This document shows positions 2,487 through 50,070 of a DNA stretch of 64,000 nt, piece after piece. The stretch lies in assembly GCA_017480095.1 (NCBI GenBank), contig JAFVBG010000002.1, positions 3,728-67,727 on the forward strand, read 5' to 3'. Made by a program: the position numbers and the translations under genes. Position 1 is the first letter of the stretch; every line of letters begins with the position of its first letter. Origin of the DNA: Candidatus Saccharimonadota bacterium (lineage in GTDB: Bacteria; Patescibacteriota; Saccharimonadia; Saccharimonadales; Saccharimonadaceae). A model generated the notes under the pieces. The model was not told the DNA's origin and did no database searches. It saw only the letters and a program-made list of their open reading frames with translations.

Positions 2487-2498
2487 CCATTCAACTTG

Positions 2499-2505
2499 CC
2501 CCCCC
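2499..2505 (-). repeat. G7 homopolymer at the TRD1/TRD2 junction of hsdS
   Basis: Plus strand C7; minus GAG GGG GGG CAA, positioned like the GA tract one TRD later. Confidence 0.6.
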
Positions 2506-2555
2506 TCGCCGGCTATATTTTCGAATGAGAGAAGATGGTCACGATAATGCTCGTA

Positions 2556-3768: not shown

Positions 3769-3770
3769 CA

Positions 3771-5336
3771 CTAATCGCCCTCGATTTCTTCGATTATTTT
3801 ATTAATCTTCTGACGGAGTTCGTTCTCGCGAGCGACGATCTCTTTAAGTTCGGCATTGAGTTTCTTGATATCTACTTTTTCGCGAGTGTCTTCTGGTTCG
3901 ACATAGGTAGAAACTGAAAGATTGTAACCTTGTTCGGCTACTTCATCGTTAGGTACTAAACGAACGAGATGGTCGACGTCTTTGCGCTCTTTAACCCATT
4001 CGAGAATCTTCTCAATGTTTGCGTCGGTTAGCTTGTTGCTGTTTGTGACTTTGATAAATTCTTTGCTTGCATCTACGAATAGTGTCGAGTTCTTAGATTT
4101 ATTCTTTCGAAGAACCATGATGCATGTCGCAATGCTGGTACCATAGAACAAATTGTCTGGTAATTGAATAACGGCATCTACAAAGTTGTTATCTACTAAG
4201 TACTTGCGAATCTTTTGCTCAGCGCCACCGCGATACATAATACCTGGGAAACAGACGATTGCGGCCGCACCATTCGTGGCGAGCCAGCTAAGTGAGTGCA
4301 TAATGAACGCAAGATCAGCTTTCGATTTAGGCGCTAAAACACCAGCAGGAGAGAAGCGTTGGTCATTGATGAGAACTGGGTTACTCTCACCTTCCCAGTG
4401 GATTGAGTATGGCGGATTTGATACGATTGCCTCAAACGGTTCATCGTCCCAGTGCTGTGGATCTATGAGCGTGTCGCCGAGTGCGATATCGAACTTATCG
4501 TAGTCAATATCGTGAAGGAACATATTAATGCGGCAAAGGTTATAGGTTGTAATGTTGATTTCTTGGCCATAGAAGCCCTGGCGGACGTTGTCGCGGCCGA
4601 GAACCTTTGCAAATTTAAGGAGAAGTGAGCCTGAGCCACAAGCTGGATCATAAACTTTGTTTACGGATGTTTTACCCATTACTGCGAGCTTCGTAAGAAG
4701 TTCCGATACTTCTTGCGGAGTGTAGAATTCACCACCAGATTTACCGGCGCTTGATGCGTACATGCCCATGAGGAACTCGTAAGCGTCGCCGAATGCGTCG
4801 ATCGTGTTGTCTTGGTAATTACCGAGTCTCATATCGCCAACGCCATCCATAAGCTGAACAAGGTGGTCGTTGCGCTTTGCTACTGAGCTACCGAGCTTAT
4901 TGCTGTTAACGTCGAGGTCGTCAAAGAGACCTTTCATATCGTATTCAGAATCGTGGCCTTTTGCAGAGTCTTCAATGGAGTTTAGAGCTTTTTCGAGTGT
5001 TTCGTTTAAGTTTTCGTCGTTACGTGCGTTCTTACGGACATTCTTAAAAAGTTGGCTTGGCAGAATGAAGAAGCCTTTGGTATCTACCATTTCTTCGCGA
5101 ATCGTTTCGGCCTGTTCGTCCGGAATGCTAGCGTAATCGAAGTTTACATTGCCAGCTTTATGCTCGCCTTCGTTTATGTAATTCGTTAGGTTTTCTGAGA
5201 TAAAACGATAAAAGAGCATGCCAAGGATGTACTGCTTGAAATCCCAACCATCTACCGAACCACGAAGGTCGTTAGCGATATTCCAAATAGTACGATGTAA
5301 TTCTGCGCGCTCCTGTTCTTTTTTAGTGTCGGCCAT
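3771..5336 (-). CDS. hsdM: Type I restriction-modification N6-adenine methyltransferase subunit M
   Basis: [35 protein letters not shown] (motif I), AIVSNPPYS (motif IV). Confidence 0.97.
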
Positions 5337-5673: not shown

Positions 5674-5796
5674 GATCGGATCTTATGATCATTTCGACTA
5701 AAAGTCCACAACAATTTACCATTTCATGTCAAGAAAAAATCCTACCCCTATTTTCTGCACAATAACTTTCAAAACCCGATTGTGTCCAAGTGGATA

Positions 5797-17147: not shown

Positions 17148-18812
17148 CTATTTGCGGCGGCTAGCGATGAAGTAACCGAGAAGGGTTACAATCGAGCCAG
17201 CACCGAGGGCACTCACAGTGACAGGACCAGTAGTTGGAAGCTGTTCTGGAGTTGGATCATCTGGGAACTTGTTCTCAGCGACACAGACGCCATTGACAAG
17301 GGTGTAACCCTCTGGGCAGGTCTGTGGAGTTGGAGTTGGGGTAGTCTTCTTCTTATAGACGTTGGTTACCCAACCGTTCTCATCGATGGTGGTCTTGACC
17401 CAGATGTATTCTGGATAATCGTCACCTTCTTTATCTGGGAAGGAACCCTCAGTCCAATCCTTCAGGACAGTACCGTCTTCGAGGATCCAGCGAGTCTTCA
17501 CGACTTTCTGCTCTTCTTTCTTCTTGTAGATATTGGTAACCCAACCCTGACCGTCGGTGGTGTACTTCACAAAATCGTATTGTGGATAGTCATCACCTTC
17601 TTTGTCTGGGAAAGTACCTTCGGTCCAGTCTTTGAGAACCGTACCATCTTCAAGAATCCAGCGAGTCTTGAGGATTTTTGGCGTCTCACAGGTCTTGTTG
17701 ACTACAACGTCAGCTGAGTCTTGGAGGGTAACCTTAGCTACACCAACCTGAGCCCAGTTACGAAGGGTGTTTTTACCACAGACGAGGTCTTTATCGACCA
17801 CCTTAGCGGTAAAGCGGACATAACCTTCAGCGTTGATACCATAGCCACCAATGCTGACGGCCTTCTTGGTGAAGTCGTCAAGCTTGAGACCATTTTTACC
17901 AGTAGTCTTGTTGTAAAGCACTGGAGCAGAGGCGACTTCCATGTTGGTTGGGAGCGTATCAATTACAGATACGTTCTCAGCAGCAGCCTCAGTAGTGTTC
18001 TTGTAATGAATCTGATATTCAACTACGTCACCGACGTTAGCGGTGAGAGATTCCACGAAGGAATCGGTGGTGCCGGCCTTGCGGACGGTCTTTTCTACGA
18101 TGTAGTTTTCGTCAGTAAAGACTGGCTTAACTTTGATCGTAACGAACTGGGAATACTGGTAACAACCAGGGATTTTCCCATCACCAGCCTTGTCGTAACC
18201 AAGAGTTACACCAGTGCTGGTGATGATGGAATCGGAGAGTTTAGCACCGTTTCCACCTTTGGCATAGCCATTGTTTTCAACTAATGCAGAACCTTCGACA
18301 TAGTCAAGGTAGAATTTCTGACCGTTAGCCGACTTGAAGACAACGCTGTCCCAATACTGAGTTGGAGTAGCATTGCTGGAGTCGATGTAGCCAGTAATTG
18401 CATTAGAAGTAGCGTAGTTCTTCGACAAAGCAAAGGTAGCCTTGACGTTCTGAGCTACGGCATCATAACCCTTCGGGCTGTTGTTGTGGACATAAAGACG
18501 GACGAGGTAAGTCTTGCCACTCTCGACGGTAATCTCGTTGGCATTCCAAACGTTCTCTTTGCCTTTATTCTGTCCATCATCGACGCGAGCGCCGACGAAG
18601 TTACGCTCATCACCAAACGTACCGTCGGTGATAGAGTTGAAGACGATCTTGTTGCCGAGGACACCGGACTCAATCTGAGCCTTAGTGTAACCCGGACGAC
18701 CGCCACCGTTGTCACCCCAAGCCTCAGTACGAGTAGCGTTGAAGGCAACGGTAATCCCTGCTACAGCACCAAGCGCTGCAACTGCAGTGATAGTTTTCTG
18801 AACCTTGTTCAT
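17148..18812 (-). CDS. Cell-surface protein: signal peptide, DUF11-like domain, two 57-aa repeats, LPXTG sorting signal
   Basis: N-terminal signal; GDVVEYQIHYKNT...NVSVIDTLP (DUF11-like); C-terminal LPTTG + hydrophobic segment + SRRK. Confidence 0.82.
   Translation of the reverse strand: MNKVQKTITAVAALGAVAGITVAFNATRTEAWGDNGGGRPGYTKAQIESGVLGNKIVFNSITDGTFGDERNFVGARVDDGQNKGKENVWNANEITVESGKTYLVRLYVHNNSPKGYDAVAQNVKATFALSKNYATSNAITGYIDSSNATPTQYWDSVVFKSANGQKFYLDYVEGSALVENNGYAKGGNGAKLSDSIITSTGVTLGYDKAGDGKIPGCYQYSQFVTIKVKPVFTDENYIVEKTVRKAGTTDSFVESLTANVGDVVEYQIHYKNTTEAAAENVSVIDTLPTNMEVASAPVLYNKTTGKNGLKLDDFTKKAVSIGGYGINAEGYVRFTAKVVDKDLVCGKNTLRNWAQVGVAKVTLQDSADVVVNKTCETPKILKTRWILEDGTVLKDWTEGTFPDKEGDDYPQYDFVKYTTDGQGWVTNIYKKKEEQKVVKTRWILEDGTVLKDWTEGSFPDKEGDDYPEYIWVKTTIDENGWVTNVYKKKTTPTPTPQTCPEGYTLVNGVCVAENKFPDDPTPEQLPTTGPVTVSALGAGSIVTLLGYFIASRRK
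17345..17669 (-). repeat. Two tandem 171-nt (57-aa) repeats KTRWILEDGTVLKDWTEGxFPDKEGDDYP...GWVTNxYKK
   Basis: AAGACTCGC starts at 17669 and 17498; MucBP-like appearance. Confidence 0.85.
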
Positions 18813-18837
18813 AAAACTCCTTTCTTATTTGATATTA

Positions 18838-18865
18838 TAAAAACCGGATCGTCTCAAGGATGAAA
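18838..18865 (+). repeat. Left arm of a 28-bp imperfect inverted repeat (partner 21770-21797)
   Basis: TAAAAACCGGATCGTCTCAAGGATGAAA versus the reverse complement of the partner, TAAAAACCGGATCATCTCAGGGATCAAA (25/28). Confidence 0.8.
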
Positions 18866-18906
18866 TTGGTCTGAAAATCTTGAAATTTTTGGAAAGTTTT
18901 TGGAAA

Positions 18907-18930
18907 GGGAGCCGACCGAAGTCGGCCCCC
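18907..18930 (-). terminator. Intrinsic terminator of the 19006-21539 operon
   Basis: GGGGGCCGAC-TTCG-GTCGGCTCCC then TTTCC on the minus strand. Confidence 0.7.
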
Positions 18931-19005
18931 AGAAGTTTGGGAATTTGTGCTACTGTAGCAGAGGCTTCCCGAAGCCTTAAGGTGCATTGTGCATTTTCAC
19001 CCTTA

Positions 19006-20841
19006 TTAATTTGGCAGCCAGTCAGGAGCGTCATCGCCGTTATCTTCGGCTACGTTCTGATTTGCGCTACCAGCAGCAGTATTCTGCTCTGCCTCGACAG
19101 GTCGAGTTGCGATATTCTCGTTATCAATCTGTTCGAGGGTGGTTGTGGTATTACCACTGGTATCAGTATGCGTCGTTTCAGTGACGACATCCTGAGTATG
19201 ACCACCGTTATCTTCCGTGTGACCGGTCGTCGTGGTGGTTGTAGTGGTTGTGCCAGTGTTATCCTGGTGAGTTTCCGTTACTACGGAGCTGGTACCAGGA
19301 GCCTGAACCTCACTATCACTCGGCCCGACGTGTCCCTGAGTATTCTCAGGCGAACTGTCATGACTATCGTGCGTGCGATCCGGGTCAGCCTGGGGCTGAT
19401 ACTGACTCTGTTGTACGTCGGTGCTATCGCTCTTCGGTACGGTCGGTTCCGGCTCATACGGGCCAGGACTGGGGTCATCGTTGCTGCCACCACCAGTCGG
19501 GGCGTTACCCTGCTCATCCGGTTTCTGAGATTCGTCTTTCGACGGTTTCGGAGTCGGAGTGGGCTGAGGTGTCGGCTGCGGAGTCGGTTGCGGGGTTGGC
19601 TGCGGATCCGGAGTGTTGTCCGGCGTCGGATTGGGATCCGGCGTGTTATCCGGGCTCGGCTGCGGTTGCGGCGTGTTCTGTGGCTTTGGTGTCGGAGTCG
19701 GGTCTGACGTTTTGTCAGGCGCCGGGGTCGTCTTGGTCGGCGTAGCAGTCGGTGCGGGCTGCTGTACCACGCCAGGATGACCTACCCTAAGGTCTCCAAC
19801 GTTGAAGAGTACTACAAAGAGCACTCTGTTACTCTTCGGGTCCTGGAACTGGAATCTAACCCAGTCACCAGTCTCCGACTTGTTGCAACGAGTAGCGCGA
19901 AGCAAGCTTGCGCTCTCGAATGGTAACAGCTCGTAGAACCAATCGGCAGTCACATCAGTGACAAACTCTCTGTCGAAGGCATCCAGCACTTCGCAGAGAC
20001 CGATGGCTACGGTGGCTTGATCCACTCGCCCAGTCTGCGCGTTCACCTCGCTAGAGATGTATTCGCAATTCGGGTCGAGCGTCACTTCGAGACCACGCGG
20101 AGCCTTACCAGCAGCTACCCACTCAGGGTAAATCTGACCGGTCAGGTCCTTGCGATCCACGTTCTTGTAAGCGGCGTTCATATACTTGAGGTAATCTGTC
20201 AGCCAGCTCAGATGTGTTCCGAGCGTCGTGTCGTTCTCGTTGAACTTCACGTCATTCAGATAGTCTGCCAGTTGCAGCGCCTCCAGTGGATTGGTCAAGA
20301 TTACACACTGAATATACAACTTCGCGTAGGTATGGTTAGTACCAATCTCCTTCGGAAGCGCATATTCCGGTGCATTGGATATGACATCCTTCGGGCGTCT
20401 GCCCTCAGTGATACTGCTACGAACGCGGGTTTCCGACTCGCTTTTCAAGCTAGCCGGACGGAACTTAGCGACGAGCTTTCCGTTCTCATTCTGAATCGAG
20501 AAACGGTCCACCCAAGTCTGTCCATCCTGCTTCGCCTGTGCGAGCTGGGTGAGGAAGTTGCCAAGCCAAGAGGCCGGCTCAATTTCTTCCAGGGTCTTCG
20601 GCAAGTCGAGGGTCTGGACGACCTCCTCCATTGTCATGGTAGGGACTGCAGATGCAGCTTCGGTCGTCATTTCCTCAGTTTCGACAGTTGTGGAATCCGG
20701 CAGGATTTCATTGCCAGATGCCAAGGTGATGTCGGCTTCGTCGGCAACGACGGTTTCGGTTTTCGGCGGCATGAATGCGACCACACCAACCGCACCGAGA
20801 CCAATCAGCAGCACGACTGTTAAGGCGATTAATCTCTTCAT
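19006..20841 (-). CDS. Secreted/membrane-anchored hypothetical protein with a Pro/Thr/Gln-rich repeat tail
   Basis: Hydrophobic N-terminus, about 280-aa globular middle, PQPT and PDNTPDP repeats, acidic Thr-rich C-terminus. Confidence 0.75.
   Translation of the reverse strand: MKRLIALTVVLLIGLGAVGVVAFMPPKTETVVADEADITLASGNEILPDSTTVETEEMTTEAASAVPTMTMEEVVQTLDLPKTLEEIEPASWLGNFLTQLAQAKQDGQTWVDRFSIQNENGKLVAKFRPASLKSESETRVRSSITEGRRPKDVISNAPEYALPKEIGTNHTYAKLYIQCVILTNPLEALQLADYLNDVKFNENDTTLGTHLSWLTDYLKYMNAAYKNVDRKDLTGQIYPEWVAAGKAPRGLEVTLDPNCEYISSEVNAQTGRVDQATVAIGLCEVLDAFDREFVTDVTADWFYELLPFESASLLRATRCNKSETGDWVRFQFQDPKSNRVLFVVLFNVGDLRVGHPGVVQQPAPTATPTKTTPAPDKTSDPTPTPKPQNTPQPQPSPDNTPDPNPTPDNTPDPQPTPQPTPQPTPQPTPTPKPSKDESQKPDEQGNAPTGGGSNDDPSPGPYEPEPTVPKSDSTDVQQSQYQPQADPDRTHDSHDSSPENTQGHVGPSDSEVQAPGTSSVVTETHQDNTGTTTTTTTTTGHTEDNGGHTQDVVTETTHTDTSGNTTTTLEQIDNENIATRPVEAEQNTAAGSANQNVAEDNGDDAPDWLPN
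19550..19695 (-). repeat. 12-nt (PQPT) and 24-nt (PDNTPDPx) tandem coding repeats
   Basis: Seen directly in the sequence and the translation. Confidence 0.75.
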
Positions 20842-21539
20842 TTTGATTCCCCTCCTTCTTCGGGTATTTCATCATTATCAGGGTTGCGGCGGAAACGCTC
20901 TTTGAGCGTCTCCTTCTGTCTGCGAATGTCATCCAGCTTGGGTCTGGACACAGGCTTCACTTCTGCGCCGAAGCGCTTGGTAAAGTCGTTCCAGGTGAGG
21001 AACATCTTGACAATCGTCGCGAGGACGACCACCGCGATAACCACGAGGGTTACATAATGTTCCCAGCCCAGCGGTTCTCCAACCATCCTTGAGCCGAAGC
21101 TCAGGAGAAACATCGGAATCACAAAGGCTGCCCAGCCAGCGATCATGCAGACAGCTCTGGTCGGCGGATCGTCGTTCAGGTCTGCGTACTTGTCATTCAA
21201 GAAGGAATTGTTGATTCCCGTCCAGATGTAGTACAGATAAAACATCGAGACAATCCAGTATGCGTAGAGACAAATATTCAATTGTACGTTCTCGCCAATC
21301 TGCAAGCTTCTCGGAAGCAACAGGATGAGGAAGTTAATCCCCACGCGATACAGAATGGCTACCCCATAGGTAGCTTTCTGCAGGTGGAGCTTCTCACCCG
21401 TGCGCTTGTAGAAAATGTAGTCGGCGATTGCGGTGGTGCCGAACGCTGAAATCAGCGCCAGCCCCAGGATGAGCAACAGCGTGGACAAGCCCAGGCTGAT
21501 GCCGCTAACAGTATTGAAATAATTTCTTACAGCTTCCAT
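20838..21539 (-). CDS. Multi-pass membrane hypothetical protein
   Basis: GGAGGTG RBS; about 5 hydrophobic helices; overlaps the next gene's start. Confidence 0.75.
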   Translation of the reverse strand: MEAVRNYFNTVSGISLGLSTLLLILGLALISAFGTTAIADYIFYKRTGEKLHLQKATYGVAILYRVGINFLILLLPRSLQIGENVQLNICLYAYWIVSMFYLYYIWTGINNSFLNDKYADLNDDPPTRAVCMIAGWAAFVIPMFLLSFGSRMVGEPLGWEHYVTLVVIAVVVLATIVKMFLTWNDFTKRFGAEVKPVSRPKLDDIRRQKETLKERFRRNPDNDEIPEEGGESK

Positions 21540-21836
21540 AATTGCACCTCCATAATTGTGCGTCTATTTTGGTCCTAAGCTCATCTTTTTAGACGAGCTT
21601 TTGCTACGAAATATATAAACACAGGAGGTGCACCAACCCCCTGATATAGAAATTGACCGCGCAGGCTTATGGCTCTCAAAACGAACCAGCTCGCTTCTTG
21701 CGCGGGCCCTAAAATTCAGGGACTTCTGTGGGTTTTACCCCACAAAGGGTTAAATGCACTTTCTCAGGGTTTGATCCCTGAGATGATCCGGTTTTTAATG
21801 GTCGTCAGTGTAGGGTTTGCTCCCTTATCATTGACT
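21540..21836 (-). ncRNA. Candidate structured cis-regulatory 5' leader (about 300 nt)
   Basis: Lies between a sigma70 promoter and the ATG; at least 7 hairpins, a terminator-like stem and an anti-SD segment. Confidence 0.45.
21770..21797 (-). repeat. Right arm of the 28-bp inverted repeat (partner 18838-18865)
   Basis: Plus strand TTTGATCCCTGAGATGATCCGGTTTTTA. Confidence 0.8.
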
Positions 21837-21842
21837 GCTTCC

Positions 21843-21871
21843 ATTATAGCACACTTTTGCAAAAAAGTCAA
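21843..21871 (-). promoter_or_regulatory. sigma70 promoter TTGACT-17-TATAAT with extended -10 TG
   Basis: Minus strand TTGACTTTTTTGCAAAAGTGTGCTATAAT. Confidence 0.75.
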
Positions 21872-21956
21872 GCTTTTGCTTATATTTTTGCATAATAGTC
21901 AAGCTTATTTTTTAATGCTTATGGTCTAGGTCGATTTTATCTCTGTTAAAGGCATG

Positions 21957-24159: not shown

Positions 24160-24237
24160 GGTGGGATTAGCTCAGATGGTTAGAGCGTCTGATTGTGGTC
24201 CAGAAGGTCGTCGGTTCGATCCCGATATCCCACCCCA
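24160..24237 (+). tRNA. tRNA-His (GTG)
   Basis: G-1, acceptor GTGGGAT/ATCCCAC, anticodon loop TTGTGGT, GGTTCGAT, encoded CCA. Confidence 0.95.
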
Positions 24238-24326
24238 TTCAGAACGTGAATCTTGGCATTTTTCCTCGTTCGCTCGCCGAATAGGCGCGTTTCACTCGGA
24301 GAAAATACCAATCTTCGCGCCCTGAA
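24238..24326. repeat. Long imperfect palindromic (REP-like) element between tRNA-His and tRNA-Gly
   Basis: Nested pairings TTCAG/CTGAA, TGGCATTTTT/AGAAAATACCA, CGCC/GGCG. Confidence 0.45.
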
Positions 24327-24340
24327 AAGCAATAACGCCT

Positions 24341-24415
24341 GCGAGTGTAGTACAGCGGTTAGTATGCAAGTTTTCCAAACTTGAGATGAGGTTTCGACTA
24401 CCTCCACTCGCACCA
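24341..24415 (+). tRNA. tRNA-Gly (TCC)
   Basis: GCGAGTG/CACTCGC acceptor; CAAGT-TTTCCAA-ACTTG anticodon arm; CCA. Confidence 0.93.
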
Positions 24416-24428
24416 TTTCCCGAAGCCT

Positions 24429-24505
24429 GCACCCTTAGCTCAGCGGATTAGAGCGTCTGTCTTCGGAACAGAAGGTCGTGGGTTCGAATCCCTCAGGGTG
24501 TACCA
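24429..24505 (+). tRNA. tRNA-Arg (TCG)
   Basis: GCACCCT/AGGGTGT acceptor; TCTGT-CTTCGGA-ACAGA anticodon arm; GGTTCGAAT; CCA. Confidence 0.95.
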
Positions 24506-24540
24506 CAGATTTCAAGACCACAGCGGTCTATTTTTATTTT

Positions 24541-25080
24541 ATGAAGATTTTAAGCGAAAAAGAGATGTTAGACTACGGTCGCCAACTAGGCACTGGATTT
24601 TTGACGCGTCTCAAGAACGGTGAGACCGTAGTGGTGGAACTACTTGGCGACGTCGGAGCTGGAAAAACCACTCTCACACGCGGGATTGCTGAAGGATTAG
24701 GCGTCTCCGCCCCTGTTACTTCGCCAAGTTTTACCATCTCAAAACGCTATGCTTTCCTAGCAGACAACCTAGAGGGGGCTTTGATACATTATGATTTTTA
24801 CCGTCTGCCCGACCCCGGACTAATGAGCGAAGAGCTGGACGAAAGCCTAAACTCGCCCAATACCGTTGTCATTCTAGAGTGGGCGGATTCGGTGGAGGGT
24901 ATTTTGCCAGATAATAGAATTAGAATTGAGATTAAATATCTCGATGACGGTGGGCGCGAAGTGATTACTGGCGGAGCCAAAAGCTTTCATGCCGGGGGTG
25001 AGCATAAAGAGGTGGCAGATAAATCAGGAGATTGCCTTGGCGACGAACGTAAGATTTTTAAGGCTACCGAGGAGAAATAA
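24541..25080 (+). CDS. tsaE: tRNA t6A biosynthesis ATPase TsaE, with a C-terminal extension
   Basis: LLGDVGAGKTT, VTSPSFTI, HYDFYRL, EWAD; ATG at 24541. Confidence 0.95.
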   Translation: MKILSEKEMLDYGRQLGTGFLTRLKNGETVVVELLGDVGAGKTTLTRGIAEGLGVSAPVTSPSFTISKRYAFLADNLEGALIHYDFYRLPDPGLMSEELDESLNSPNTVVILEWADSVEGILPDNRIRIEIKYLDDGGREVITGGAKSFHAGGEHKEVADKSGDCLGDERKIFKATEEK

Positions 25081-26943: not shown

Positions 26944-28017
26944 TTAACTACTGATGCGATGAATCTGGTATTGACCGTTCTGCGGGAATAGAGTCAGAGT
27001 AGAGCCAACTGAATATGTGCCAGAATTATAAGCTTTTCCGCCACTAGAACTCGTATTATAGCGCAGAGTTGCATTTGTATCTAAGATAAGTAAGTCGTTC
27101 TCGGTCAGACTATCTGCGGATGTTACCGAAGATTTATATCCAGTAATCACCACAAAATGCCTACTATTTGGCTCAAAACTATAGGCTACCTTGGCAATCA
27201 CTGGCTTACCGGCGTTTATCTGGTTGTAAATCTCTTTTAGCAAGTCTTGCTTACTTGATGTATTGTATGGATTTCCTTGCACAGTGTGACCAGCTCTACC
27301 GGCAGAAGCATCTTTATCACTAGCAACTTTCTCCCCATAGTAGAGATTGGCCAAATAAACACTTGAGAAGTTAAGGCATTTACCATTATCTGGTGATTCC
27401 CTTAGAGTGCTGTAGGTTTGACAATTCCCACTGGCATCGCACGATTTCTTATCTTGAGCAATTTTCTTCTGATAAACATACTGCTGATAGTCTTTTACTG
27501 AGATAGCCGTATCTGCAACACTCCAATTTTCACCCATCAAGCTTAGTGAAGTAGTTTTTCCCTGTGGACCAGAAGGGGTATCTGGAGTGACTGGAGTAGA
27601 TTGTGAAGAATCTGGATCGGCTTGACTACCAGGAGTTGTGCCTGGCGTAGTGCTTTGGCTGCTTGGGGTTTGGCTCGAAGGAGCCTCTTCTACAACTGGG
27701 CAAGAGCTAGTGTTTGACGTAAGATCGGACTGCAAAATGCCACCAGGAATCAAGAACTGCAAGACTGCAAACATGACGCCATAGACCAAAATCCCAATCA
27801 CTACCTGAAAAATACGATTTTTAGCCTTTGCCATTTTCACCTCATTCCCAGAGGAAGTAAGATACATGATGCCGGCAATAGTGATACCTAGTACTGCTAG
27901 TACACCCACGCCAGCGGTTAAGATTTTGATGATGAGGGCTAAAATCTTAAAGACAGAGCCGCCGTCGCAAGAGTCACAGACCTGCCCAAAGAAGATTGTG
28001 TCGATGCAATATTGCAT
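26944..28017 (-). CDS. CPR-type VirB2/TrbC-like pilin domain fused to a C39-like (papain-fold) peptidase domain
   Basis: N-terminal ILTAGVGVLAVLGITIAGIMYLTSSGNEVKMAKAKNRIFQVVIG; Ser/Thr/Pro linker; GKCLNFSS...INAGKPVIA...RHFVVITGY...LILDTN. Confidence 0.7.
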   Translation of the reverse strand: MQYCIDTIFFGQVCDSCDGGSVFKILALIIKILTAGVGVLAVLGITIAGIMYLTSSGNEVKMAKAKNRIFQVVIGILVYGVMFAVLQFLIPGGILQSDLTSNTSSCPVVEEAPSSQTPSSQSTTPGTTPGSQADPDSSQSTPVTPDTPSGPQGKTTSLSLMGENWSVADTAISVKDYQQYVYQKKIAQDKKSCDASGNCQTYSTLRESPDNGKCLNFSSVYLANLYYGEKVASDKDASAGRAGHTVQGNPYNTSSKQDLLKEIYNQINAGKPVIAKVAYSFEPNSRHFVVITGYKSSVTSADSLTENDLLILDTNATLRYNTSSSGGKAYNSGTYSVGSTLTLFPQNGQYQIHRISS

Positions 28018-28019
28018 GA

Positions 28020-28721
28020 TTAATTAGCCTCCGTTTCTAGCGGCGTTAAGACCTTAAATTCTTCAGCTCTGGTCATAGATTCAAAAAGCTCCAGTTTTGT
28101 AACTATATCATATTTATATCCATAAGAGTTCTCTGTATATGGATAGGTATAGTAAAGTGCATCTACCGGACGTCCGCCGTAAACAATAATAGTCTTGCCT
28201 TCAGTGGTGAACGGATAGCCACCTTTAGCATAAATCACAGCAATCTGACCGTTATCTAAATAATAGTTCAAGATATTGGAGTTCATAGCCCAAAGCGTAG
28301 TATAATTATCCCCAATAATCTCAATCTTTCCGTCATCAATTTTGAGGCCAAAGTCCCGAGCAATCTCTTCTGGACTCATATTAGAGTATTTTGACAACTC
28401 CGTATTAGAAACATAATCCGAATGAGGTTCCCCTTTTAACAACGCAGTCAAGTGGGCGTTCAATTCTTCCGTCTGGTTAACAGCATCACTATACCCTGCA
28501 AGGTCAACGGCACCATCTTCGGCAATATTTTCATTATCTGGCTGCTGCTCGGCGAGGAATACCATCGCCACTGCTGTGCCAATAATCACCAAAATACTGA
28601 ACATGAAGACCAGAAACATGGTCGGGGTGCGTTTTTCTGATTGAGAAATCCCTAGCTGGCGCTGATAGGCCTCGGCGCGAGATTCGATAATCGAGACCGG
28701 TGCGGTAGATTGATTCTGCAT
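28020..28721 (-). CDS. Single-TM protein with a degenerate C39-like domain
   Basis: YLDNGQIAVIYAKGGYPFTTEGKTIIVYG resembles L..G.PVI.....FT..GHFIV..G but has K at the catalytic His. Confidence 0.5.
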   Translation of the reverse strand: MQNQSTAPVSIIESRAEAYQRQLGISQSEKRTPTMFLVFMFSILVIIGTAVAMVFLAEQQPDNENIAEDGAVDLAGYSDAVNQTEELNAHLTALLKGEPHSDYVSNTELSKYSNMSPEEIARDFGLKIDDGKIEIIGDNYTTLWAMNSNILNYYLDNGQIAVIYAKGGYPFTTEGKTIIVYGGRPVDALYYTYPYTENSYGYKYDIVTKLELFESMTRAEEFKVLTPLETEAN

Positions 28722-28727
28722 ATTCCC

Positions 28728-29555
28728 CTATTTTTCGTTGTGAATCTTAACCTGCTTAAACGGAATCTCGATTTTACGGGCAGCAAATTCATCAAGAATA
28801 GTTCGGCGTAACATTCGCTGCATCTTGAAGTGTTTGTAAGGCGCACACGGGCATTGAATCCGCCATTTCACGCCATTTTCAGTCAGCCCAGTGATGCCTA
28901 ATACCTTGATTTCACCCCTGGCATCTTCAATCGTACCGTCGAGTTTCTTCTTAACCGCATCGAGCGCCTTCTCAATATCTTTTGAATCGTGTTTATAGGC
29001 CACCTCGACATCAACGATGGCCAGAGTATTGTCCTGGGAATAATTGACCAGAGTACTAAGATTATGGTTAGCAATCACCTTGATTTTACCCCGGAAATTA
29101 CGGATTTTGGTAGTTTTTAGCCCTAAGAAGATGACGCGACCACGAAAACCATCGACTTCAATCAGATCGCCGACCTGAAACTGGTTCTCCGAAAGGATTG
29201 AAATCCCCGCAATAATGTCTTTAGCGAGATCTTGCAAAGCGAGGCCGAGAATAGCAGTGGCAATGCCAAGTCCAGCGAAAATGGAGCTGACATCCACGCC
29301 ATAAACCGCCAAGATAATCAGGATAACGATGAGAGAAATGACGTATTTTAAGATGTTTGAGCCGAGCGTATTGACGGTCTGCAAGCGCTGGTAGTTGGTC
29401 TGCCCCACCTTGTCTGGACTTAAGCGCAGAAAGAGGCGCAAACCGTTTGATAATAGCTTATAGACAAAAAAGCCCAGGATAATGTAAATAATCGGCTTGA
29501 GAATCAAGTTCCAGTCGAAGTATTCAATTCCTAGACTTTTGAGAAAAGAATCCAT
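28728..29555 (-). CDS. mscS: Small-conductance mechanosensitive channel
   Basis: GLALQDLAKDIIAGISILSENQFQVGDLIEV, IGLKTTK-like motif, IEIPF. Confidence 0.92.
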   Translation of the reverse strand: MDSFLKSLGIEYFDWNLILKPIIYIILGFFVYKLLSNGLRLFLRLSPDKVGQTNYQRLQTVNTLGSNILKYVISLIVILIILAVYGVDVSSIFAGLGIATAILGLALQDLAKDIIAGISILSENQFQVGDLIEVDGFRGRVIFLGLKTTKIRNFRGKIKVIANHNLSTLVNYSQDNTLAIVDVEVAYKHDSKDIEKALDAVKKKLDGTIEDARGEIKVLGITGLTENGVKWRIQCPCAPYKHFKMQRMLRRTILDEFAARKIEIPFKQVKIHNEK

Positions 29556-29859: not shown

Positions 29860-30426
29860 TTAGCCGACCAGCTTATGTACGTCGTATTCCGACTGCTCTT
29901 CATATTCGTAAGAAGATTGAATGCCTTTCATATAAACTTCGCGATTGTTTATATCGGAGGTCAAAGCTTTTTCGAGAAGCGTCTTAATTTCAAGATCATT
30001 GATAGGCGACCGCTCCATTGCGGATAAGTATTCCTCTTTTCCGACTTTTGACCAATCCACACATTTACCTATTTTTTTCTTTAAAATCTGATCGAGCCAA
30101 ATCCTAGTTGCACGACCATTCCCCTCTCGAAATGGATGAGCAACGTTCATCTCGACATATTTTTTAATTATCTCGTCATAATTGTCGTCTGGGAGGTTAT
30201 CGATAGTTTTTAGAGTATCATTGAGATATATTACTGGTGCAAAACGAAAATTACTCTTAGCTAAATCTACGTCGCGAATCTTCCCTGCAAAATCAAAGAC
30301 ATCCTGAAAAAGAAAAAGGTGAATCTGTTTTAAGCCTTCAGTAGTTCCAATCTCGAATTCATTTATTTTTCCGCTATCATATAGCTCAATAGCACGTTTC
30401 TTACTCTGGAGCTCTTCGTTTTTCAT
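29860..30426 (-). CDS. fic: Class III Fic protein (NmFic-like)
   Basis: HPFREGNGRATRIWLD; C-terminal SYEYE inhibitory-type helix. Confidence 0.92.
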   Translation of the reverse strand: MKNEELQSKKRAIELYDSGKINEFEIGTTEGLKQIHLFLFQDVFDFAGKIRDVDLAKSNFRFAPVIYLNDTLKTIDNLPDDNYDEIIKKYVEMNVAHPFREGNGRATRIWLDQILKKKIGKCVDWSKVGKEEYLSAMERSPINDLEIKTLLEKALTSDINNREVYMKGIQSSYEYEEQSEYDVHKLVG

Positions 30427-31689: not shown

Positions 31690-33039
31690 ATGAAAAGTCC
31701 ACCCAGAAAGCCACATCTTCCCCATATTTCTTGGTTCGTCGTGTTTTTTGCTATTTTATCTATCATTAGCATAATTTATGCGCAAATAGTCGGGCATTCC
31801 AACACGCAAAAGGCTGTCGAATTTTTGAAGAACTTTGAGAATATGCCCGTAATCATCTCTGGCACAGTTCTAAAAGATCCGACCGAGAGCGAGGGCAAAA
31901 TTGGCTACACTTTGACTAGTCTTAGGCTAGAAGAGCCTGTAACTCAAGAATTGGCAGGTAAAATCTATGTCAGCTTTCGCAACTTAAATACTGAACAGAG
32001 GCCAGAGCGTTCAGATAACCTGACCTTGAGTGGTGAGCTACAAGCAGGGTTTGGCAACTTCGTCGCTTCACTGAGGAGTCCTAAAATTGAGCGGCTAGAG
32101 CCTGGGGATGACGTTTTCTTGCAAATCCGCAATCATTTTGCCGACCAAATCCGCATATACGTCGAAGCTCCAGAGTCTGGTCTCGAATTAGGCTATCTAC
32201 TAGGCATGAAGACCGAAATTGACCCTGAGCTTGAAGAGACATTGCGAGTGGTTGGACTGACACACATGGTAGTGGCTTCTGGTACACATCTCGGTATTCT
32301 GGTAGGTGTAGGGCGAAAGTTATTCGGAAAAATCTCCCGCTTCGCCGGTCTCTTGGCGGCGGGGATAATGATTGTCATCTTCGTCGGAATTACTGGACTC
32401 ACGCCGTCCATGATGCGCGCTGCTTTCGTATCTGGATTAACACTTATAGCCTGGTATTTTGGGCGAGATGCGGACGCCTGGCGAATTTTGCTCTATGCCG
32501 CCGCCGTAACACTTCTGATAAATCCTGACAATCTGACCGATCTCGCGTGGCAGCTTTCGTTCGGTTCGTTTACGGGTCTAATGCTGATTGCTCCGATTTT
32601 AACACGGTTCTTCTACGGCTCCAAAAGCCCAGGCTTCATCGGCTCAAGTATCATCACGTCCGTCTCCACCATTCTCTGTTGCGCGCCGATTTTACTCTAT
32701 TCCTTTGGCTCGCTCTCGATTATTTCGGTCCTGGCCAACATTCTCATCTTGCCAACCCTGGCACCAGTGATGGGGCTGGGTCTCGTAGCTGGAGCTTGCG
32801 GACTGCTCGGAGTGCCACTTCTAGCGCAAATCTGCGGTTTCATTACAACTATAGTCTTGAAATATCACATCTTTACCGTCAACCTGCTAGGGGCGCAATC
32901 CATTTTTCTAGTCGAAGTCGAGAAGAATAATCCCATCGTCTTTCTGCTGTGGCTAATCCCAGTAAGTCTAATAATAATCAAAATATGGCAGACAAAGAAA
33001 CATCAAACTGCCTTCTTGGCAAACGCTCAATCTGGTTAG
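31690..33039 (+). CDS. comEC: ComEC/Rec2 competence DNA-uptake channel (membrane and OB-like parts, no MBL domain)
   Basis: GLTHMVVASGTHL, TPSMMRA, WQLSF; multiple TM helices. Confidence 0.9.
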   Translation: MKSPPRKPHLPHISWFVVFFAILSIISIIYAQIVGHSNTQKAVEFLKNFENMPVIISGTVLKDPTESEGKIGYTLTSLRLEEPVTQELAGKIYVSFRNLNTEQRPERSDNLTLSGELQAGFGNFVASLRSPKIERLEPGDDVFLQIRNHFADQIRIYVEAPESGLELGYLLGMKTEIDPELEETLRVVGLTHMVVASGTHLGILVGVGRKLFGKISRFAGLLAAGIMIVIFVGITGLTPSMMRAAFVSGLTLIAWYFGRDADAWRILLYAAAVTLLINPDNLTDLAWQLSFGSFTGLMLIAPILTRFFYGSKSPGFIGSSIITSVSTILCCAPILLYSFGSLSIISVLANILILPTLAPVMGLGLVAGACGLLGVPLLAQICGFITTIVLKYHIFTVNLLGAQSIFLVEVEKNNPIVFLLWLIPVSLIIIKIWQTKKHQTAFLANAQSG

Positions 33040-33580
33040 TTAGCCTTCGCGCATGAGTGGGAATCTTGTCTTCAATCATCTCGTCAATAGATTGCCAAGC
33101 TTTTAGCTCTTGAATCAGCCTAAAGGTAAAGACATCAAAAAGCTGCTCTTGTGCATTCTGCGTGAGCTTAGGCTGAATTTCGAGCCAACGTTCAATAACT
33201 ACTTGTTTCAAAGTCAGCGCAATCTGGTGAAAATATGAAAAATCCCAATTATCTAATAGTCGCGCATAAAGTTTATGATGTCTCGCAAAATGTGTAAAAA
33301 TCAGATAAAAAAGCATCTCAAAAGAGGCACGCTCCATAATTCGACTTAAAGCTCGTTGTAGTTCGTCTATCGTATGTTCTAGATGTGCCGCAATCGCCTC
33401 TTCAATACCGCTAAAATGGCGATAAAAAGTTGAACGCCTGATCTTTGCCAGGCGACAGATGCCAGAAACAGTTATCTTATCGGAGGAACGCTCCGTTATG
33501 ACCTCTTCTATGGCTCGATAAATCTTGTTCTCAGAATTCTGGTAACGCTGGTCGCGCACTAGATTTCGAGTGAGCTCCAT
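32978..33580 (-). CDS. TetR/AcrR family transcriptional regulator
   Basis: KITVSGICRLAKIRRSTFYRHF HTH; promoter TTGACT-17-TATAAT at 33614-33586. Confidence 0.88.
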   Translation of the reverse strand: MELTRNLVRDQRYQNSENKIYRAIEEVITERSSDKITVSGICRLAKIRRSTFYRHFSGIEEAIAAHLEHTIDELQRALSRIMERASFEMLFYLIFTHFARHHKLYARLLDNWDFSYFHQIALTLKQVVIERWLEIQPKLTQNAQEQLFDVFTFRLIQELKAWQSIDEMIEDKIPTHARRLTNQIERLPRRQFDVSLSAIF

Positions 33581-49961: not shown

Positions 49962-50070
49962 AGTGGTTTTACTCCTTATGAACATTATATCATATTTTGA
50001 CTATGCCAGCAAAGTTATAATAGTTCCCTAATAATTTAGATTGGTGTATGCAGCATGAGATCACAGGGGG

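What the first reader, a model, noticed from the sequence alone, without database searches (positions are those of the whole stretch)
21540..21836. About 300-nt riboswitch-like leader with three GGG-NNNAAA-CCC hairpins and a terminator/anti-SD switch
Seen on the transcript: AGGG-AGCAAA-CCCU, UCUCAGGG-AUCAAA-CCCUGAGA and UGUGGG-GUAAAA-CCCACA in series; a CCGCGCA/UGCGCGG multistem; a 10-bp AAGCUCGUCU/AGAUGAGCUU stem; and CAGGGGGU/ACCUCCUG followed by a U-rich run. The 3' arm of that last stem (UGCACCUCC) is also a 9-nt complement of the RBS (GGAGGUGCA), so the two pairings are mutually exclusive. It does not match riboswitches I can recognise. Inference: a novel cis-regulatory RNA or a protein-binding array.
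Basis: partly seen in the sequence, partly recalled or inferred. Interest (0 to 1): 0.7.

Follow-up and report, generated by a model that had tools for sequence, protein, structure and literature searches.

The report
Novel structured leader RNA in Saccharibacteria
A roughly 300-nt folded RNA leader, matching no catalogued RNA family, sits in front of a cell-surface-protein operon in gut/rumen Saccharibacteria (tiny parasitic bacteria) and probably switches translation on or off by hiding the ribosome-binding site.

Summary
On the minus strand, a strong promoter (21871-21843) is followed by a ~297-nt, strongly structured leader (z = -7.2) before a 233-aa membrane-protein gene. The organism is a gut/rumen Saccharibacteria (TM7). 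No Rfam family matches.

Homologous leaders lie in front of the same three-gene envelope/surface operon in five further loci. The proteins there have drifted to 25-34% identity, yet a ~31-nt stretch of the leader is invariant.

Compensatory changes support helices P3, P5 and P6. The 9-bp anti-SD:SD pairing is kept in all four long leaders and is extended by lineage-specific complementarity (-21 to -25 kcal/mol, against -12 to -14 for P6). A third competing helix (GUGCAU-AACC with the P6 arm/loop) is also conserved.

- The GGG-NNNAAA-CCC motif is not conserved: loops vary and hairpin 3 is optional.
- The U-tract is lost in one lineage.
- The 10-bp stem is local.

One finding is new. The invariant module has an inverted, co-varying partner about 25 nt upstream of gene 3's SD, 3 kb downstream on the same probable mRNA.

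Verdict: a new cis-regulatory leader family acting by SD sequestration. Its sensor is unknown; long-range RNA pairing is my leading guess.

The parts
21843..21871 (-). Promoter: -35 TTGACT (21871-21866), 17-nt spacer, extended -10 TGcTATAAT (21851-21843). Predicted start is near A21836.
   Evidence: 11 of 12 matches with TG. The -35 and AAGTGTGnTATAATGG are conserved in all five loci, then 4 variable nt, then conservation resumes at AGUCAAUG. The 35-nt promoter also matches many unrelated contigs, so it is a generic clade promoter.
21804..21835 (-). P1. Outer stem GUCAAUG (21835-21829) with CACUGAC (21810-21804), one A.C mismatch. It encloses hairpin 1, AGGG-AGCAAA-CCCU (21825-21812).
   Evidence: MFE. 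The 5' strand is invariant. The hairpin-1 stem is kept and its loop is variable. There is no covariation, so this is neutral evidence.
21776..21806 (-). Invariant ~31-nt module GACGACCAUUAAAAACCGGAUCAUCUCAGGG. The 20-mer M, AAAAACCGGAUCAUCUCAGG, is 21796-21777. Its 3' end forms the 5' arm of P2.
   Evidence: Identical in the window, L002, L041/L042 and L043. L044 has one change (G to A). The downstream proteins are only 25-34% identical. An ORF from the conserved AUG reads the module in different frames in different loci, so it is not coding (sequences). The same 31 nt occur in other contigs with different flanks.
21762..21783 (-).
   Evidence: The stem is present in all five leaders. The loop is not conserved: AUCAAA, UUGAAU, AUUAAGC.
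21747..21759 (-). J2/3: conserved GUGCAU(UU)AACCC. It is complementary to the P6 5' arm and loop (the alternative helix) and it mimics the GUGCA that follows the SD.
   Evidence: GUGCAU is invariant in all five leaders. Duplex with GGGUUGGUGCAC is -14 to -21 kcal/mol; shuffles reaching this number 0/500, 0/500, 2/500 and 54/500. AACCC:GGGUU becomes AAACC:GGUUU in L041.
21727..21744 (-). This is an optional, variable hairpin.
   Evidence: Replaced by UGCGACC-GCAA-GGUCGCA (L002) and UGCAACC-CCUAAAAA-GGUUGCG (L041). Absent in L043 and L044.
21707..21721 (-). P4: CCCU-GAAUUUU-AGGG.
   Evidence: CCC...GGG is kept in the four long leaders and never varies.
21657..21705 (-). P5: CCGCGCA/UGCGCGG closing a variable insert that contains UGGUUC/GAGCCA (21688-21683 / 21675-21670).
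   Evidence: CCAUACA/UGUAUGG in L041 and CCACGC/GCGUGG with only a triloop in L043. Three pairs change on both sides.
21622..21643 (-). P6: CAGGGGGU-UGGUGC-ACCUCCUG. Terminator-like in the window. Its 3' arm plus loop is the anti-SD (UGCACCUCC, 21632-21624), with an extension UGUGUUUAU (21623-21615).
   Evidence: terminator-like. Two stem positions show double changes in L041/L043. The hairpin is -12 to -14 kcal/mol. The U-tract is absent in L041.
21577..21600 (-). 10-bp hairpin AAGCUCGUCU-AAAA-AGAUGAGCUU between P6 and the SD. It is lineage-specific.
   Evidence: Present in the window and L002, with one G.U to A-U change. There is no equivalent in L043. L041 has an unrelated small hairpin.
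21537..21567 (-). Gene-1 translation initiation region: AUAGACGCA (21567-21559, pairs with the anti-SD extension), SD plus flank GGAGGUGCA (21551-21543), and AUG (21539-21537).
   Evidence: GGAGGUGCAA is conserved in all long leaders. The anti-SD:SD duplex is -21 to -25 kcal/mol, and its extension is maintained by different sequences in each lineage. The SD is paired in every full-length MFE.
20838..21539 (-). Gene 1: 233-aa multi-pass membrane protein of unknown function, the regulated gene.
   Evidence: No Pfam or NCBIfam hit. There are 6 relatives among 1.8 billion representatives. The AF2 model is helical and has no fold match.
17148..20841 (-). Gene 2 (19006-20841): 611 aa, N-terminal TM/signal segment, globular domain, Pro/Thr-rich tail. 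Gene 3 (17148-18812): 554 aa, SSSPR-51 plus DUF11 surface-repeat protein.
   Evidence: The same gene order occurs in L041/L042, L043 and L044.
18838..18866 (-). M'c: the complement of the module, on the operon mRNA. The plus strand reads AAAAACCGGATCGTCTCAAG at 18839-18858. It lies about 25 nt upstream of gene 3's SD (18817-20 on the plus strand). Its 3' half, UCCGGUUUUUAU, is predicted to pair with the gene-3 SD region.
   Evidence: It is the only <=2-mismatch repeat of any leader 20-mer in the window. It is conserved at the same place and orientation in L041, L042, L044 and the X16 contig, with the same G to A change as M in the L044/X16 lineage. There is no promoter-like or terminator-like site on this strand in the spacer.

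Best explanation
This is a previously undescribed, lineage-restricted, structured 5' leader RNA (about 297 nt, 21836 to 21540, minus strand). It belongs to a three-gene envelope/surface-protein operon of gut/rumen Saccharibacteria.

It has two parts.

(1) A 5' core found in every copy: P1, an invariant ~31-nt stretch, P2, and GUGCAUAACC.

(2) In the long versions, a 3' expression platform in which one segment (GGGUUGGUGCACCUCC) has three mutually exclusive partners:
- its own 5' arm (hairpin P6);
- the upstream GUGCAU-AACC element;
- the ribosome-binding site of gene 1 (GGAGGUGCA).

The SD-sequestered fold is the most stable, so the default state is 'translation off'. The other two pairings free the SD. 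Termination at P6 is at most an accessory in some lineages.

What sets the switch is not known. My leading inference is that the invariant module is read by base-pairing with its conserved complement (M'c). M'c lies 3 kb downstream on the same mRNA, where it otherwise masks gene 3's SD, so the pairing could couple expression of gene 1 and gene 3.

Shown: the structure, its conservation, the covariation, the competing complementarities, and the co-varying M/M' pair.
Inferred: the transcription start, co-transcription of the three genes, the direction of regulation, and the M:M'c pairing in vivo.
For: - Promoter and strong fold.
- No Rfam family.
- Leaders homologous by covariance model (88-108 bits) precede gene-1 homologues that are 80%, 34%, 27% and 25% identical, within the same operon.
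- 90% of proposed pairs form, against 25-41% when partners are slid. P5 has 3 double-sided changes.
- P3 and P6 show compensatory changes.
- The anti-SD:SD core is kept in 4 of 4 long leaders, with lineage-specific extensions; -21 to -25 against -12 to -14 kcal/mol for P6.
- The SD is paired in all full-length MFE folds.
- The J2/3:P6 alternative helix is conserved, with one compensatory change.
- M' is at the same place and orientation in 4 loci and co-varies with M (G/G or A/A).
- M'c is predicted to pair with gene 3's SD region in 3 of 3 loci.
- There is no promoter or terminator consensus between genes 2 and 3.
Against: - There is no transcript data: the RNA runs offered hold no reads, so the start site, the 3' ends and co-transcription are all predictions.
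- Only five distinct sequences exist, two of them nearly identical, so covariation statistics are weak.
- P1 and P2 never vary.
- L044 and the X16 contig lack the whole P4-P6 platform yet keep the core. SD sequestration by P6's arm therefore cannot be the universal output.
- The M:M'c duplex carries a conserved A.C mismatch.
- The G/A co-variation is a single event, shared by two related contigs.
- The module also occurs in other contigs without a visible M' partner.
- A related, more abundant gene-3 region lacks M'.
Confidence: 0.55

Rival explanations
1. A protein-dependent leader. The invariant module, which overlaps the 5' arm of the next hairpin, is the binding site of a dedicated RNA-binding regulator or of one of the operon's own products. 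Binding decides which downstream helices form. This would resemble RAT/BglG-type, PyrR-type or ribosomal-protein-leader control.
For: - A ~31-nt stretch invariant across lineages whose proteins are 25-34% identical is typical of a macromolecular recognition site.
- The module always overlaps the 5' arm of the following hairpin. In another contig that hairpin is followed by UUUUU (CAGGUAC-AAAU-GUACCUG-UUUUU), the classic antiterminator-target arrangement.
- A conserved ~500-aa gene of unknown function is always immediately upstream.
Against: - No RNA-binding domain (CAT/PRD, ANTAR, PyrR, KH, S1 and so on) is recognisable in the neighbours. The upstream protein and gene 1 have no Pfam, PDB or fold relatives.
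- The loops do not fit the ANTAR rule.
- This model does not by itself explain the inverted, co-varying M' copy.
Confidence: 0.2
2. A metabolite- or ion-sensing riboswitch of a new class. The 5' core (P1, invariant junction, P2, GUGCAUA) is the aptamer, and P6/anti-SD is the expression platform.
For: - Invariant unpaired nucleotides are flanked by helices.
- The variable-length, covarying peripheral stems (P3, P5) and the three-way competing expression platform are riboswitch-like.
- Gene 1 is a membrane protein that could be a transporter.
Against: - The core is a string of hairpins, with no enclosing helix or junction linking it to the platform.
- It is tied to one operon type of surface proteins in a narrow clade, not to a metabolic regulon.
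- Gene 1 has no transporter fold match.
- The short version goes straight to the SD without a platform.
- The module has a complementary partner in the same operon.
Confidence: 0.15
3. The M/M' pair acts on DNA, not RNA. One version: they are the inverted repeats of an invertible ~2.9-kb segment (genes 1-2 plus most of the leader), giving phase variation of surface proteins. The other version: they are two operators of one DNA-binding regulator.
For: - About 25-28-bp inverted repeats flank a segment next to surface-protein genes, and both copies carry the same substitution in one lineage, as recombination sites or co-evolving operators would.
- Saccharibacteria are reported among taxa with inverting hsdS loci (PMC7672463, found, not read in detail), and this window has a full plus a half hsdS.
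Against: - No recombinase domain was found in any ORF of >=150 aa in the 64 kb that was scanned, nor in the other loci.
- The promoter lies outside the segment, and the inverted orientation would expose no gene.
- All six assemblies, and the contigs of four runs, have one orientation with no strand-change joints. Contigs cannot show minority forms, however.
- M and M' keep two fixed differences in all lineages.
- There is no promoter consensus at M' for an operator to control.
- This model leaves the covarying RNA helices unexplained.
Confidence: 0.1
4. A stand-alone small RNA of about 215 nt that ends at the P6 terminator, or merely a stabilising structured 5' UTR with no switching function.
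For: - There is a strong promoter, a 5'-terminal hairpin at +2, and a terminator-like P6 with a partial U run in the window and a good one in L043.
- Other contigs seem to carry the module followed directly by a terminator hairpin, which would give a ~75-nt RNA.
Against: - The U-tract is absent in L041 and weakened in a natural variant, and P6 is absent in L044.
- The anti-SD:SD complementarity and its lineage-specific extensions show selection on the link to gene 1.
- The leader is always directly upstream of gene 1 and in the same orientation.
Confidence: 0.07

Closest known systems
Translational riboswitch / RNA-switch expression platforms (SD, anti-SD, anti-anti-SD), as in thiM TPP or SAM-II-type control
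   Same: - A long, structured 5' leader.
- A pyrimidine-rich segment complementary to the SD.
- Mutually exclusive helices that free or hide the SD.
- Variable peripheral stems with covariation and invariant unpaired stretches.
   Different: - No match to any of 4227 Rfam models.
- No known ligand, and no junction-type aptamer.
- One operon type in one narrow clade.
- Some copies lack the platform entirely.
Protein-dependent antitermination/attenuation targets (RAT sites of BglG/SacY/LicT, ANTAR two-hairpin targets, PyrR and TRAP leaders)
   Same: A conserved ~30-nt RNA element overlaps the 5' arm of the next hairpin, which in some copies looks like a terminator.
   Different: - The sequence is unrelated.
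- The hexaloops lack the ANTAR A1/G4 signature and are not conserved.
- No cognate regulator gene is recognisable nearby.
Anti-antisense translational activation (DsrA/RprA with rpoS, RNAIII with hla) and long-distance intramolecular RNA interactions (MS2/Q-beta phage RNAs; rRNA processing stalks that pair across 1.5-3 kb). This comparison rests on my own knowledge.
   Same: - A segment upstream of a cistron masks its SD (M'c with the gene-3 SD, predicted).
- A second RNA segment complementary to the masking strand exists (M).
- The two lie about 3 kb apart, flanking two cistrons, like a processing stalk.
   Different: - Here the 'activator' would be the 5' leader of the same mRNA.
- Nothing has been shown experimentally.
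- The duplex has a fixed A.C mismatch.
Invertible DNA switches for surface-protein phase variation (fimS, Hin/hix, Bacteroides invertons)
   Same: Inverted repeats of about 25 bp next to surface-protein genes, with both copies changing together.
   Different: - No recombinase was found.
- The promoter is outside the segment.
- Only one orientation is seen in every assembly.
- The repeats are not dyad-symmetric core sites.
T-box leaders
   Same: The length (~300 nt), a series of stems, a terminal hairpin with a UGGUGC loop, and translational (SD-sequestering) variants all exist in T-boxes.
   Different: - No hit to the T-box model even at E<=10.
- No specifier loop or T-box sequence.
- The downstream genes are not aminoacyl-tRNA related.

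Membership tests
Any Rfam 15 family | Score at or near the family's gathering threshold with its covariance model | tested here: not met
   Nothing appears in 21540-21836 at gathering threshold or at E<=10 on the leader strand. Nothing appears in the leaders of L002, L041, L043 or L044 at E<=1.
Metabolite riboswitch (generic) | Conserved aptamer: covarying helices around invariant unpaired nucleotides | tested here: inconclusive
   The invariant 31-nt stretch and GUGCAU are flanked by helices, but the core helices P1 and P2 never vary. Covariation is confined to P3, P5 and P6. Only 5 distinct sequences are available.
Metabolite riboswitch (generic) | Expression platform with mutually exclusive structures | tested here: met
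   P6, J2/3:P6 and anti-SD:SD share nucleotides in all four long leaders. This is prediction only.
Metabolite riboswitch (generic) | Direct, specific ligand binding | not testable with these tools
   This needs in-line probing, ITC or SHAPE.
Metabolite riboswitch (generic) | Association with genes of one metabolic or transport theme, usually in several operons or taxa | tested here: not met
   All full copies precede the same orphan membrane/surface-protein operon in one Saccharibacteria clade. Gene 1 has no transporter fold match.
Intrinsic-terminator attenuator | G+C-rich hairpin immediately followed by a U-tract, conserved among homologues | tested here: not met
   Window: UGUUUAUAUAUUU passes a lax scan. 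L043 has UUUUUAU. L041 has UGAAAAUAUAG with no U-tract. A natural variant reads UGUAAAUAU. L044 has no P6.
T-box | T-box covariance model, specifier loop and T-box sequence; aminoacyl-tRNA-related downstream gene | tested here: not met
   No RF00230 hit at E<=10. The downstream genes are envelope proteins.
ANTAR target | Two adjacent hairpins with hexaloops carrying A at position 1 and G at position 4, the second overlapping a terminator | tested here: not met
   The loops AGCAAA and AUCAAA have A, not G, at position 4, and they change freely in homologues. The rule itself is taken from my own knowledge.
Invertible DNA switch | Inverted repeats flanking the segment | tested here: met
   M at 21796-21777 (-) and M' at 18839-18858 (+), 18 of 20 identical and about 25 of 28 when extended. 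Conserved in 4 loci.
Invertible DNA switch | Site-specific recombinase encoded nearby | tested here: not met
   No resolvase, invertase or integrase domain was found in the scanned ORFs of the 64-kb window or in the called genes of the related loci. A recombinase acting in trans is not excluded.
Invertible DNA switch | Both orientations present in a population | tested here: inconclusive
   Contigs from four runs and all assemblies are colinear, with no joints. Contigs drop minority variants, and no raw-read run holds the organism.
Long-range RNA-RNA pairing / anti-antisense control | Complementary segments on one transcript, with compensatory change | tested here: inconclusive
   The complementarity and the same-strand arrangement are shown. 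There is no promoter or terminator consensus between genes 2 and 3. There is one co-variation event, G-C to A-U in L044/X16. Co-transcription and pairing in vivo are not shown.

The most novel reading that the evidence does not exclude
The leader is the sensor end of an intra-operon RNA relay. Its invariant 31-nt module base-pairs with a conserved complement 3 kb downstream on the same polycistronic mRNA. That pairing unmasks the ribosome-binding site of the surface-protein gene (gene 3). By releasing the P2 3' arm and the GUGCAU element, it also resets the P6/anti-SD switch of gene 1. The result would be a long-distance, self-contained mRNA switch that sets the ratio of envelope proteins in an ultrasmall episymbiont. 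Alternatively, the pairing could form an RNase III-type processing stalk around genes 1-2.
Probability: 0.3. Interest if true: 0.8.

Novelty: new variant of a known kind. Interest (0 to 1): 0.62.

Why it matters
Regulatory RNAs of Patescibacteria/CPR are almost unknown. My literature searches found no description of any Saccharibacteria leader RNA.

These organisms live attached to host bacteria, and their surface proteins are the likely interface with the host. Here, a conserved RNA switch sits in front of an operon of a membrane protein, a Pro/Thr-rich secreted protein and an SSSPR-51/DUF11 surface protein. That would be a handle on how an episymbiont with very few transcription factors controls its envelope.

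The RNA is also an unusually clean case for study. It has a 31-nt invariant element, covarying peripheral helices, three competing helices around one segment, a natural minimal version (L044), and a co-varying complementary partner 3 kb away. Each of these is directly testable with reporter fusions and compensatory mutations.

Tried and rejected
- Rfam at gathering and permissive thresholds, on the window and on four homologous loci: nothing.
- T-box idea (UGGUGC loop): no model hit, and the genes are wrong for it.
- ANTAR or a repeated protein-binding hairpin array: the loops are not conserved.
- Genome-collection scan with two GGGAKCAAACCC hairpins: 33 hits, all unrelated (periodic CRISPR-like arrays, coding G-A-N-P-Y repeats, one 2-copy repeat).
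- JGI metagenome scans: 0 hits, then 1 chance-like hit, L046.
- Viral-contig scans for M and M': 0 hits.
- blastn against plasmids and phages: none.
- uvrA as a synteny anchor: the neighbourhood is not conserved, and the orphan operon is specific to this lineage.
- Coding or leader-peptide reading of the module: the conserved AUG opens ORFs of 8-23 codons in different frames, so this is rejected.
- Shufflon idea from L044's 'opposite-strand genes': these are mis-calls across a scaffold gap, and the real gene is a gene-2 homologue on the operon strand.
- Own promoter for gene 3 overlapping M': no consensus.
- RNA-seq: the only RNA runs offered hold no reads.
- Function of gene 1 by AF2 plus Foldseek: no significant match.
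- The 233-aa ORF at 28020-28721 is not a paralogue of gene 1.
Full report
**What is there.** The feature lies on the minus strand. A terminator of the upstream gene (21987-21961) is followed by a near-consensus promoter: TTGACT, a 17-nt spacer, then TGcTATAAT (21871-21843). The next ORF starts at 21539 (20838-21539, 233 aa).

GGGNNNAAACCC occurs four times in the 64-kb window, three of them within 95 nt here. The chance expectation is 0.31, and 0 of 100 shuffles reach 4. The stretch folds at -113 kcal/mol, z = -7.2 against dinucleotide shuffles.

**Organism and genes.** Downstream lie three genes:
- a 233-aa multi-pass membrane protein;
- a 611-aa protein with an N-terminal hydrophobic segment and a long Pro/Thr-rich tail;
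- a 554-aa SSSPR-51/DUF11 surface-repeat protein.

These are followed by uvrA. Gene 2's only close relative, and the uvrA relatives, are annotated Candidatus Saccharibacteria. The runs that hold the sequence are gut, goat-gut and wildlife metagenomes. The window is therefore from a gut/rumen TM7 genome, which explains why the proteins are near-orphans: 2 relatives among 5.8 billion by word search and 6 by exhaustive HMMER.

**Not a known RNA.** Rfam 15 gives nothing in the leader at gathering threshold. It gives nothing on the leader strand at E<=10, and nothing in four homologous leaders at E<=1. blastn against phage and plasmid collections finds nothing. Literature searches found no Saccharibacteria leader or riboswitch description.

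**Homologues.** The decisive material came from the contigs that encode relatives of gene 1.
- L002 (protein 80% identical) has a leader almost identical from the -35 box to hairpin P6. Its upstream spacer and the proteins have diverged.
- L041/L042 (34%), L043 (27%) and L044 (25%) have the same operon order and a diverged copy of the leader.
- A 5.6-kb contig in run X16 carries an L044-like copy.
- A covariance model of the 5' core scores 88-108 bits on these copies. It finds no other full copy in about 200 kb of related DNA.

**What is conserved and what is not.** The following are invariant or nearly so:
- the promoter;
- AGUCAAUG at the predicted 5' end;
- the hairpin-1 stem;
- a ~31-nt stretch, GACGACCAUUAAAAACCGGAUCAUCUCAGGG (21806-21776), whose 3' end is the 5' arm of P2;
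- the P2 stem;
- GUGCAU-AACC (21759-21747);
- CCC...GGG (P4);
- the P6 arm and loop, CAGGGGG-UUGGUGC-ACCUCC;
- GGAGGUGCAA at the start site.

The conserved AUG in AGUCAAUG opens ORFs of 8, 23, 19 and 22 codons that read the invariant stretch in different frames. The constraint is therefore on nucleotides, not on a peptide (sequences).

The following are not conserved:
- The loops of hairpins 1 and 2. AGCAAA becomes AGCAAAACA, AGCUAC or GCGAAU. AUCAAA becomes UUGAAU or AUUAAGC.
- Hairpin 3, which is replaced by unrelated hairpins in L002 and L041 and is absent in L043 and L044.
- The interior of P5, which is 35 nt in the window and a triloop in L043.
- The 10-bp stem, present only in the window and L002.
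- The U run after P6, which is absent in L041 (UGAAAAUAUAG) and weakened in a natural variant (UGUAAAUAU).

So the 'three GGG-NNNAAA-CCC hairpins' are a local coincidence of G-C-clamped hairpins, not a functional repeat. The 'terminator' is at best an optional extra.

**Covariation.** On the MAFFT alignment, 89.9% of the cells of P1, P2, P4 and P5 form standard pairs, against 25-41% when partners are slid by 1-3 columns. P5 has three pairs changed on both sides: CCGCGCA/UGCGCGG becomes CCAUACA/UGUAUGG or CCACGC/GCGUGG. P1, P2 and P4 never vary, so they say nothing either way.

With hand-registered arms, P6 has two positions with double changes and P3 has several. With five distinct sequences, two of them close, this is good qualitative support but not a statistical proof.

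**The switch.** In all four long leaders, UGCACCUCC (UGCGCCUC in L043) is complementary to the SD and its 3' flank, GGAGGUGCA. The duplex is lengthened by complementarity that differs in each lineage:
- window: UGUGUUUAU with AUAGACGCA;
- L043: UCUGUUUU with AAAACAGG;
- L002 and L041: other sequences.

This gives -21 to -25 kcal/mol, against -12 to -14 for hairpin P6, which uses the same nucleotides. The SD is paired in every full-length minimum-energy fold.

A third partner for the same segment is the invariant GUGCAU-AACC, which pairs with GGGUU-GGUGCAC. This helix is -14 to -21 kcal/mol. The number of J2/3 shuffles out of 500 that do as well is 0, 0, 2 and 54 in the four lineages. AACCC:GGGUU in the window becomes AAACC:GGUUU in L041.

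This explains why GUGCAU is conserved. It mimics the GUGCA that follows the SD and can compete with the SD for the anti-SD. One segment thus has three mutually exclusive partners. The default state is 'SD hidden', and the other two states free the SD.

**The short version.** L044 and the X16 contig keep the promoter, P1, the invariant stretch, P2 and GUGCAUAAC. They then run directly into the SD, about 40 nt later, with no P4-P6. The 5' core is therefore the essential part of the family. The P6 platform is an elaboration, which limits how general the SD-sequestration model can be.

**An unexpected partner.** The only <=2-mismatch repeat of any leader 20-mer in the 64-kb window is an inverted copy of the module's core. 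On the plus strand it reads AAAAACCGGATCGTCTCAAG at 18839-18858. It sits in the spacer between genes 2 and 3, about 25 nt upstream of gene 3's SD.

The same inverted copy lies at the same place in L041, L042, L044 and the X16 contig. Where the leader copy has CCGAAUC instead of CCGGAUC (L044), the partner has the same change. The window and L041/L042 are G/G; L044 and the X16 partner copy are A.

On the operon strand this element (M'c) is the complement of the module: 13 contiguous pairs, a fixed A.C mismatch, then more pairs. No promoter-like or terminator-like consensus lies on that strand in the spacer, so genes 1-3 are probably one transcript. In three of three loci the local fold pairs the 3' half of M'c (UCCGGUUUUUAU) with gene 3's SD region (AUAAGAAAGGA). 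The leader module could therefore act as an anti-sequestrator for gene 3.

When the module is blocked in silico, the freed P2 3' arm pairs with the P6 5' arm, and the SD of gene 1 stays hidden. This suggests, but does not show, a relay that links the two start sites.

**DNA-level alternatives.** The same pair could be inverted repeats of an invertible 2.9-kb segment, or two operators. Several points argue against this:
- no recombinase domain in the scanned ORFs of the window or of the related loci;
- the promoter lies outside the segment;
- the inverted orientation exposes no gene. The apparent opposite-strand genes in L044 are mis-calls across a scaffold gap;
- every assembly, and the contigs of four runs, show a single orientation without joints;
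- there is no promoter at M'.

Contigs cannot show minority orientations, and no raw-read run holds the organism. Inversion is therefore unlikely but not excluded.

**Other loci with the module.** Contigs in runs X1, X5 and X7 share the 31 nt but have other flanks. One reads CAUAAU-AGGGAAAGG(C/U)AAAGA(G/A)CAAUUUUG-[module]-UACAAAUGUACCUG-UUUUU, that is, a -10-like box, the module, then a terminator-like hairpin that uses the module's 3' end as its 5' arm. I could not retrieve these contigs.

They show that the module is a portable unit that always leads into a hairpin. That fits recognition by a trans-acting partner, whether RNA or protein.

**The neighbours give no lead to the signal.**
- Gene 1's model (pLDDT 70, pTM 0.56) has no significant structural relative; the best E is 0.6.
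- The always-adjacent upstream ~500-aa protein has a disordered acidic N-terminus and a conserved ~300-aa C-domain, with no Pfam or PDB relative.

**Verdict.** This is a real, conserved and previously uncatalogued cis-regulatory leader RNA family, restricted so far to one clade of animal-gut Saccharibacteria and to one envelope/surface-protein operon.

My confidence in each claim:
- It is a functional structured leader: about 0.85.
- The long form controls gene 1 by SD sequestration through three competing helices: about 0.6.
- The invariant module works by pairing with M'c: about 0.3-0.4.
- A protein partner: about 0.2.
- A small-molecule ligand: about 0.15.
- A DNA-level role for M/M': about 0.1.

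Noticed in passing
whole window: The window comes from a gut/rumen Candidatus Saccharibacteria (TM7, Patescibacteria) genome. The closest proteins are annotated as such. The runs holding the sequence are gut, goat-gut and wildlife metagenomes. The species was not hit in the GTDB representative collection with a pattern that the window itself satisfies.
   Followed up: partly
window 21836-21871 (-); also 23633 (-) and 33614 (-): The 35-nt promoter TTGACTTTTTTGCAAAAGTGTGCTATAATGG matches many unrelated contigs, at 10-20 times the depth of the genome in several metagenomes. Looser relatives lie upstream of two other genes in the window. It looks like a clade-wide, near-identical strong-promoter consensus.
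   Followed up: partly
window 21885-21905 (-): There is a second -35-like box with the same following sequence (AGCTTGACTATTATGCAAAAA), 31 nt upstream of the real -35. It is conserved in L041 and L043 (AGCTTGACCTTTTTGCAAAAA, CCTTGACCTTTTTGCAAAAA). It could be a tandem promoter remnant or an activator/UP-like site.
   Followed up: no
contigs in runs X1, X5, X7 (not retrievable); match window 21777-21807: The invariant 31-nt module occurs in other, sometimes more abundant, contigs behind a different 5' flank (CATAAT-AGGGAAAGGCAAAGAGCAATTTTG). It is followed by CAGGTAC-AAAT-GTACCTG-TTTTT. This could be a ~75-nt small RNA or a minimal attenuator that shares the module.
   Followed up: partly
window 18790-18866 (-); L041 ~5690-5775; L044 ~4410-4500: The gene-3 initiation region is conserved at the nucleotide level between loci whose proteins are about 30% identical. 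The conserved stretch covers M'c, an AU-rich spacer, the SD AAGGAG, the AUG and the first ~20 nt of coding sequence. That suggests an RNA-level constraint there too. A strong UUCG-type hairpin (18907-18930) precedes it in all loci.
   Followed up: partly
window 1290-5336 (-): A type I restriction-modification locus: hsdM (3771-5336), one full hsdS (1290-2486) and a half-length hsdS (2556-3086), with a 230-aa Pfam-less ORF between them (3079-3771). This arrangement is typical of phase-variable hsdS shuffling, but no invertase was recognised (cf. PMC7672463).
   Followed up: no
window 50070-57158: A type II-A CRISPR-Cas locus: cas9 (52959-57158), cas1 (52082-52957) and csn2 (51101-51775). The array has about 13 copies of a 36-nt repeat, GTTCAATTATACGATTGTTTTACACGATTCTCAAAC, at 50070-50964.
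   Followed up: partly
window 36-1235 (-), 29860-30426 (-): Two Fic/DOC-family genes. Also present are a ComEC competence protein (31690-33039), a TetR-family regulator (32978-33580), and a cluster with a C39-like peptidase/T4SS-pilin-like protein next to an MscS channel (26944-29555).
   Followed up: no
window 61016-61027 (-): The fourth GGGNNNAAACCC match (GGGATAAAACCC) lies inside the pheS coding region (60600-61550) on the opposite strand. I take it as chance.
   Followed up: yes
L044 2444-4304: The pipeline's gene calls on the opposite strand (190 aa, 90 aa) and a 74-aa ORF are artefacts of a Pro/Thr-rich gene interrupted by a run of N. The real gene is a gene-2 homologue on the operon strand.
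   Followed up: yes
window 24161-24502 (+), 24478-25080 (+): There is a cluster of three tRNA genes. The TsaE ORF, as listed from a GTG start, overlaps the last tRNA, so its true start is probably further downstream.
   Followed up: no
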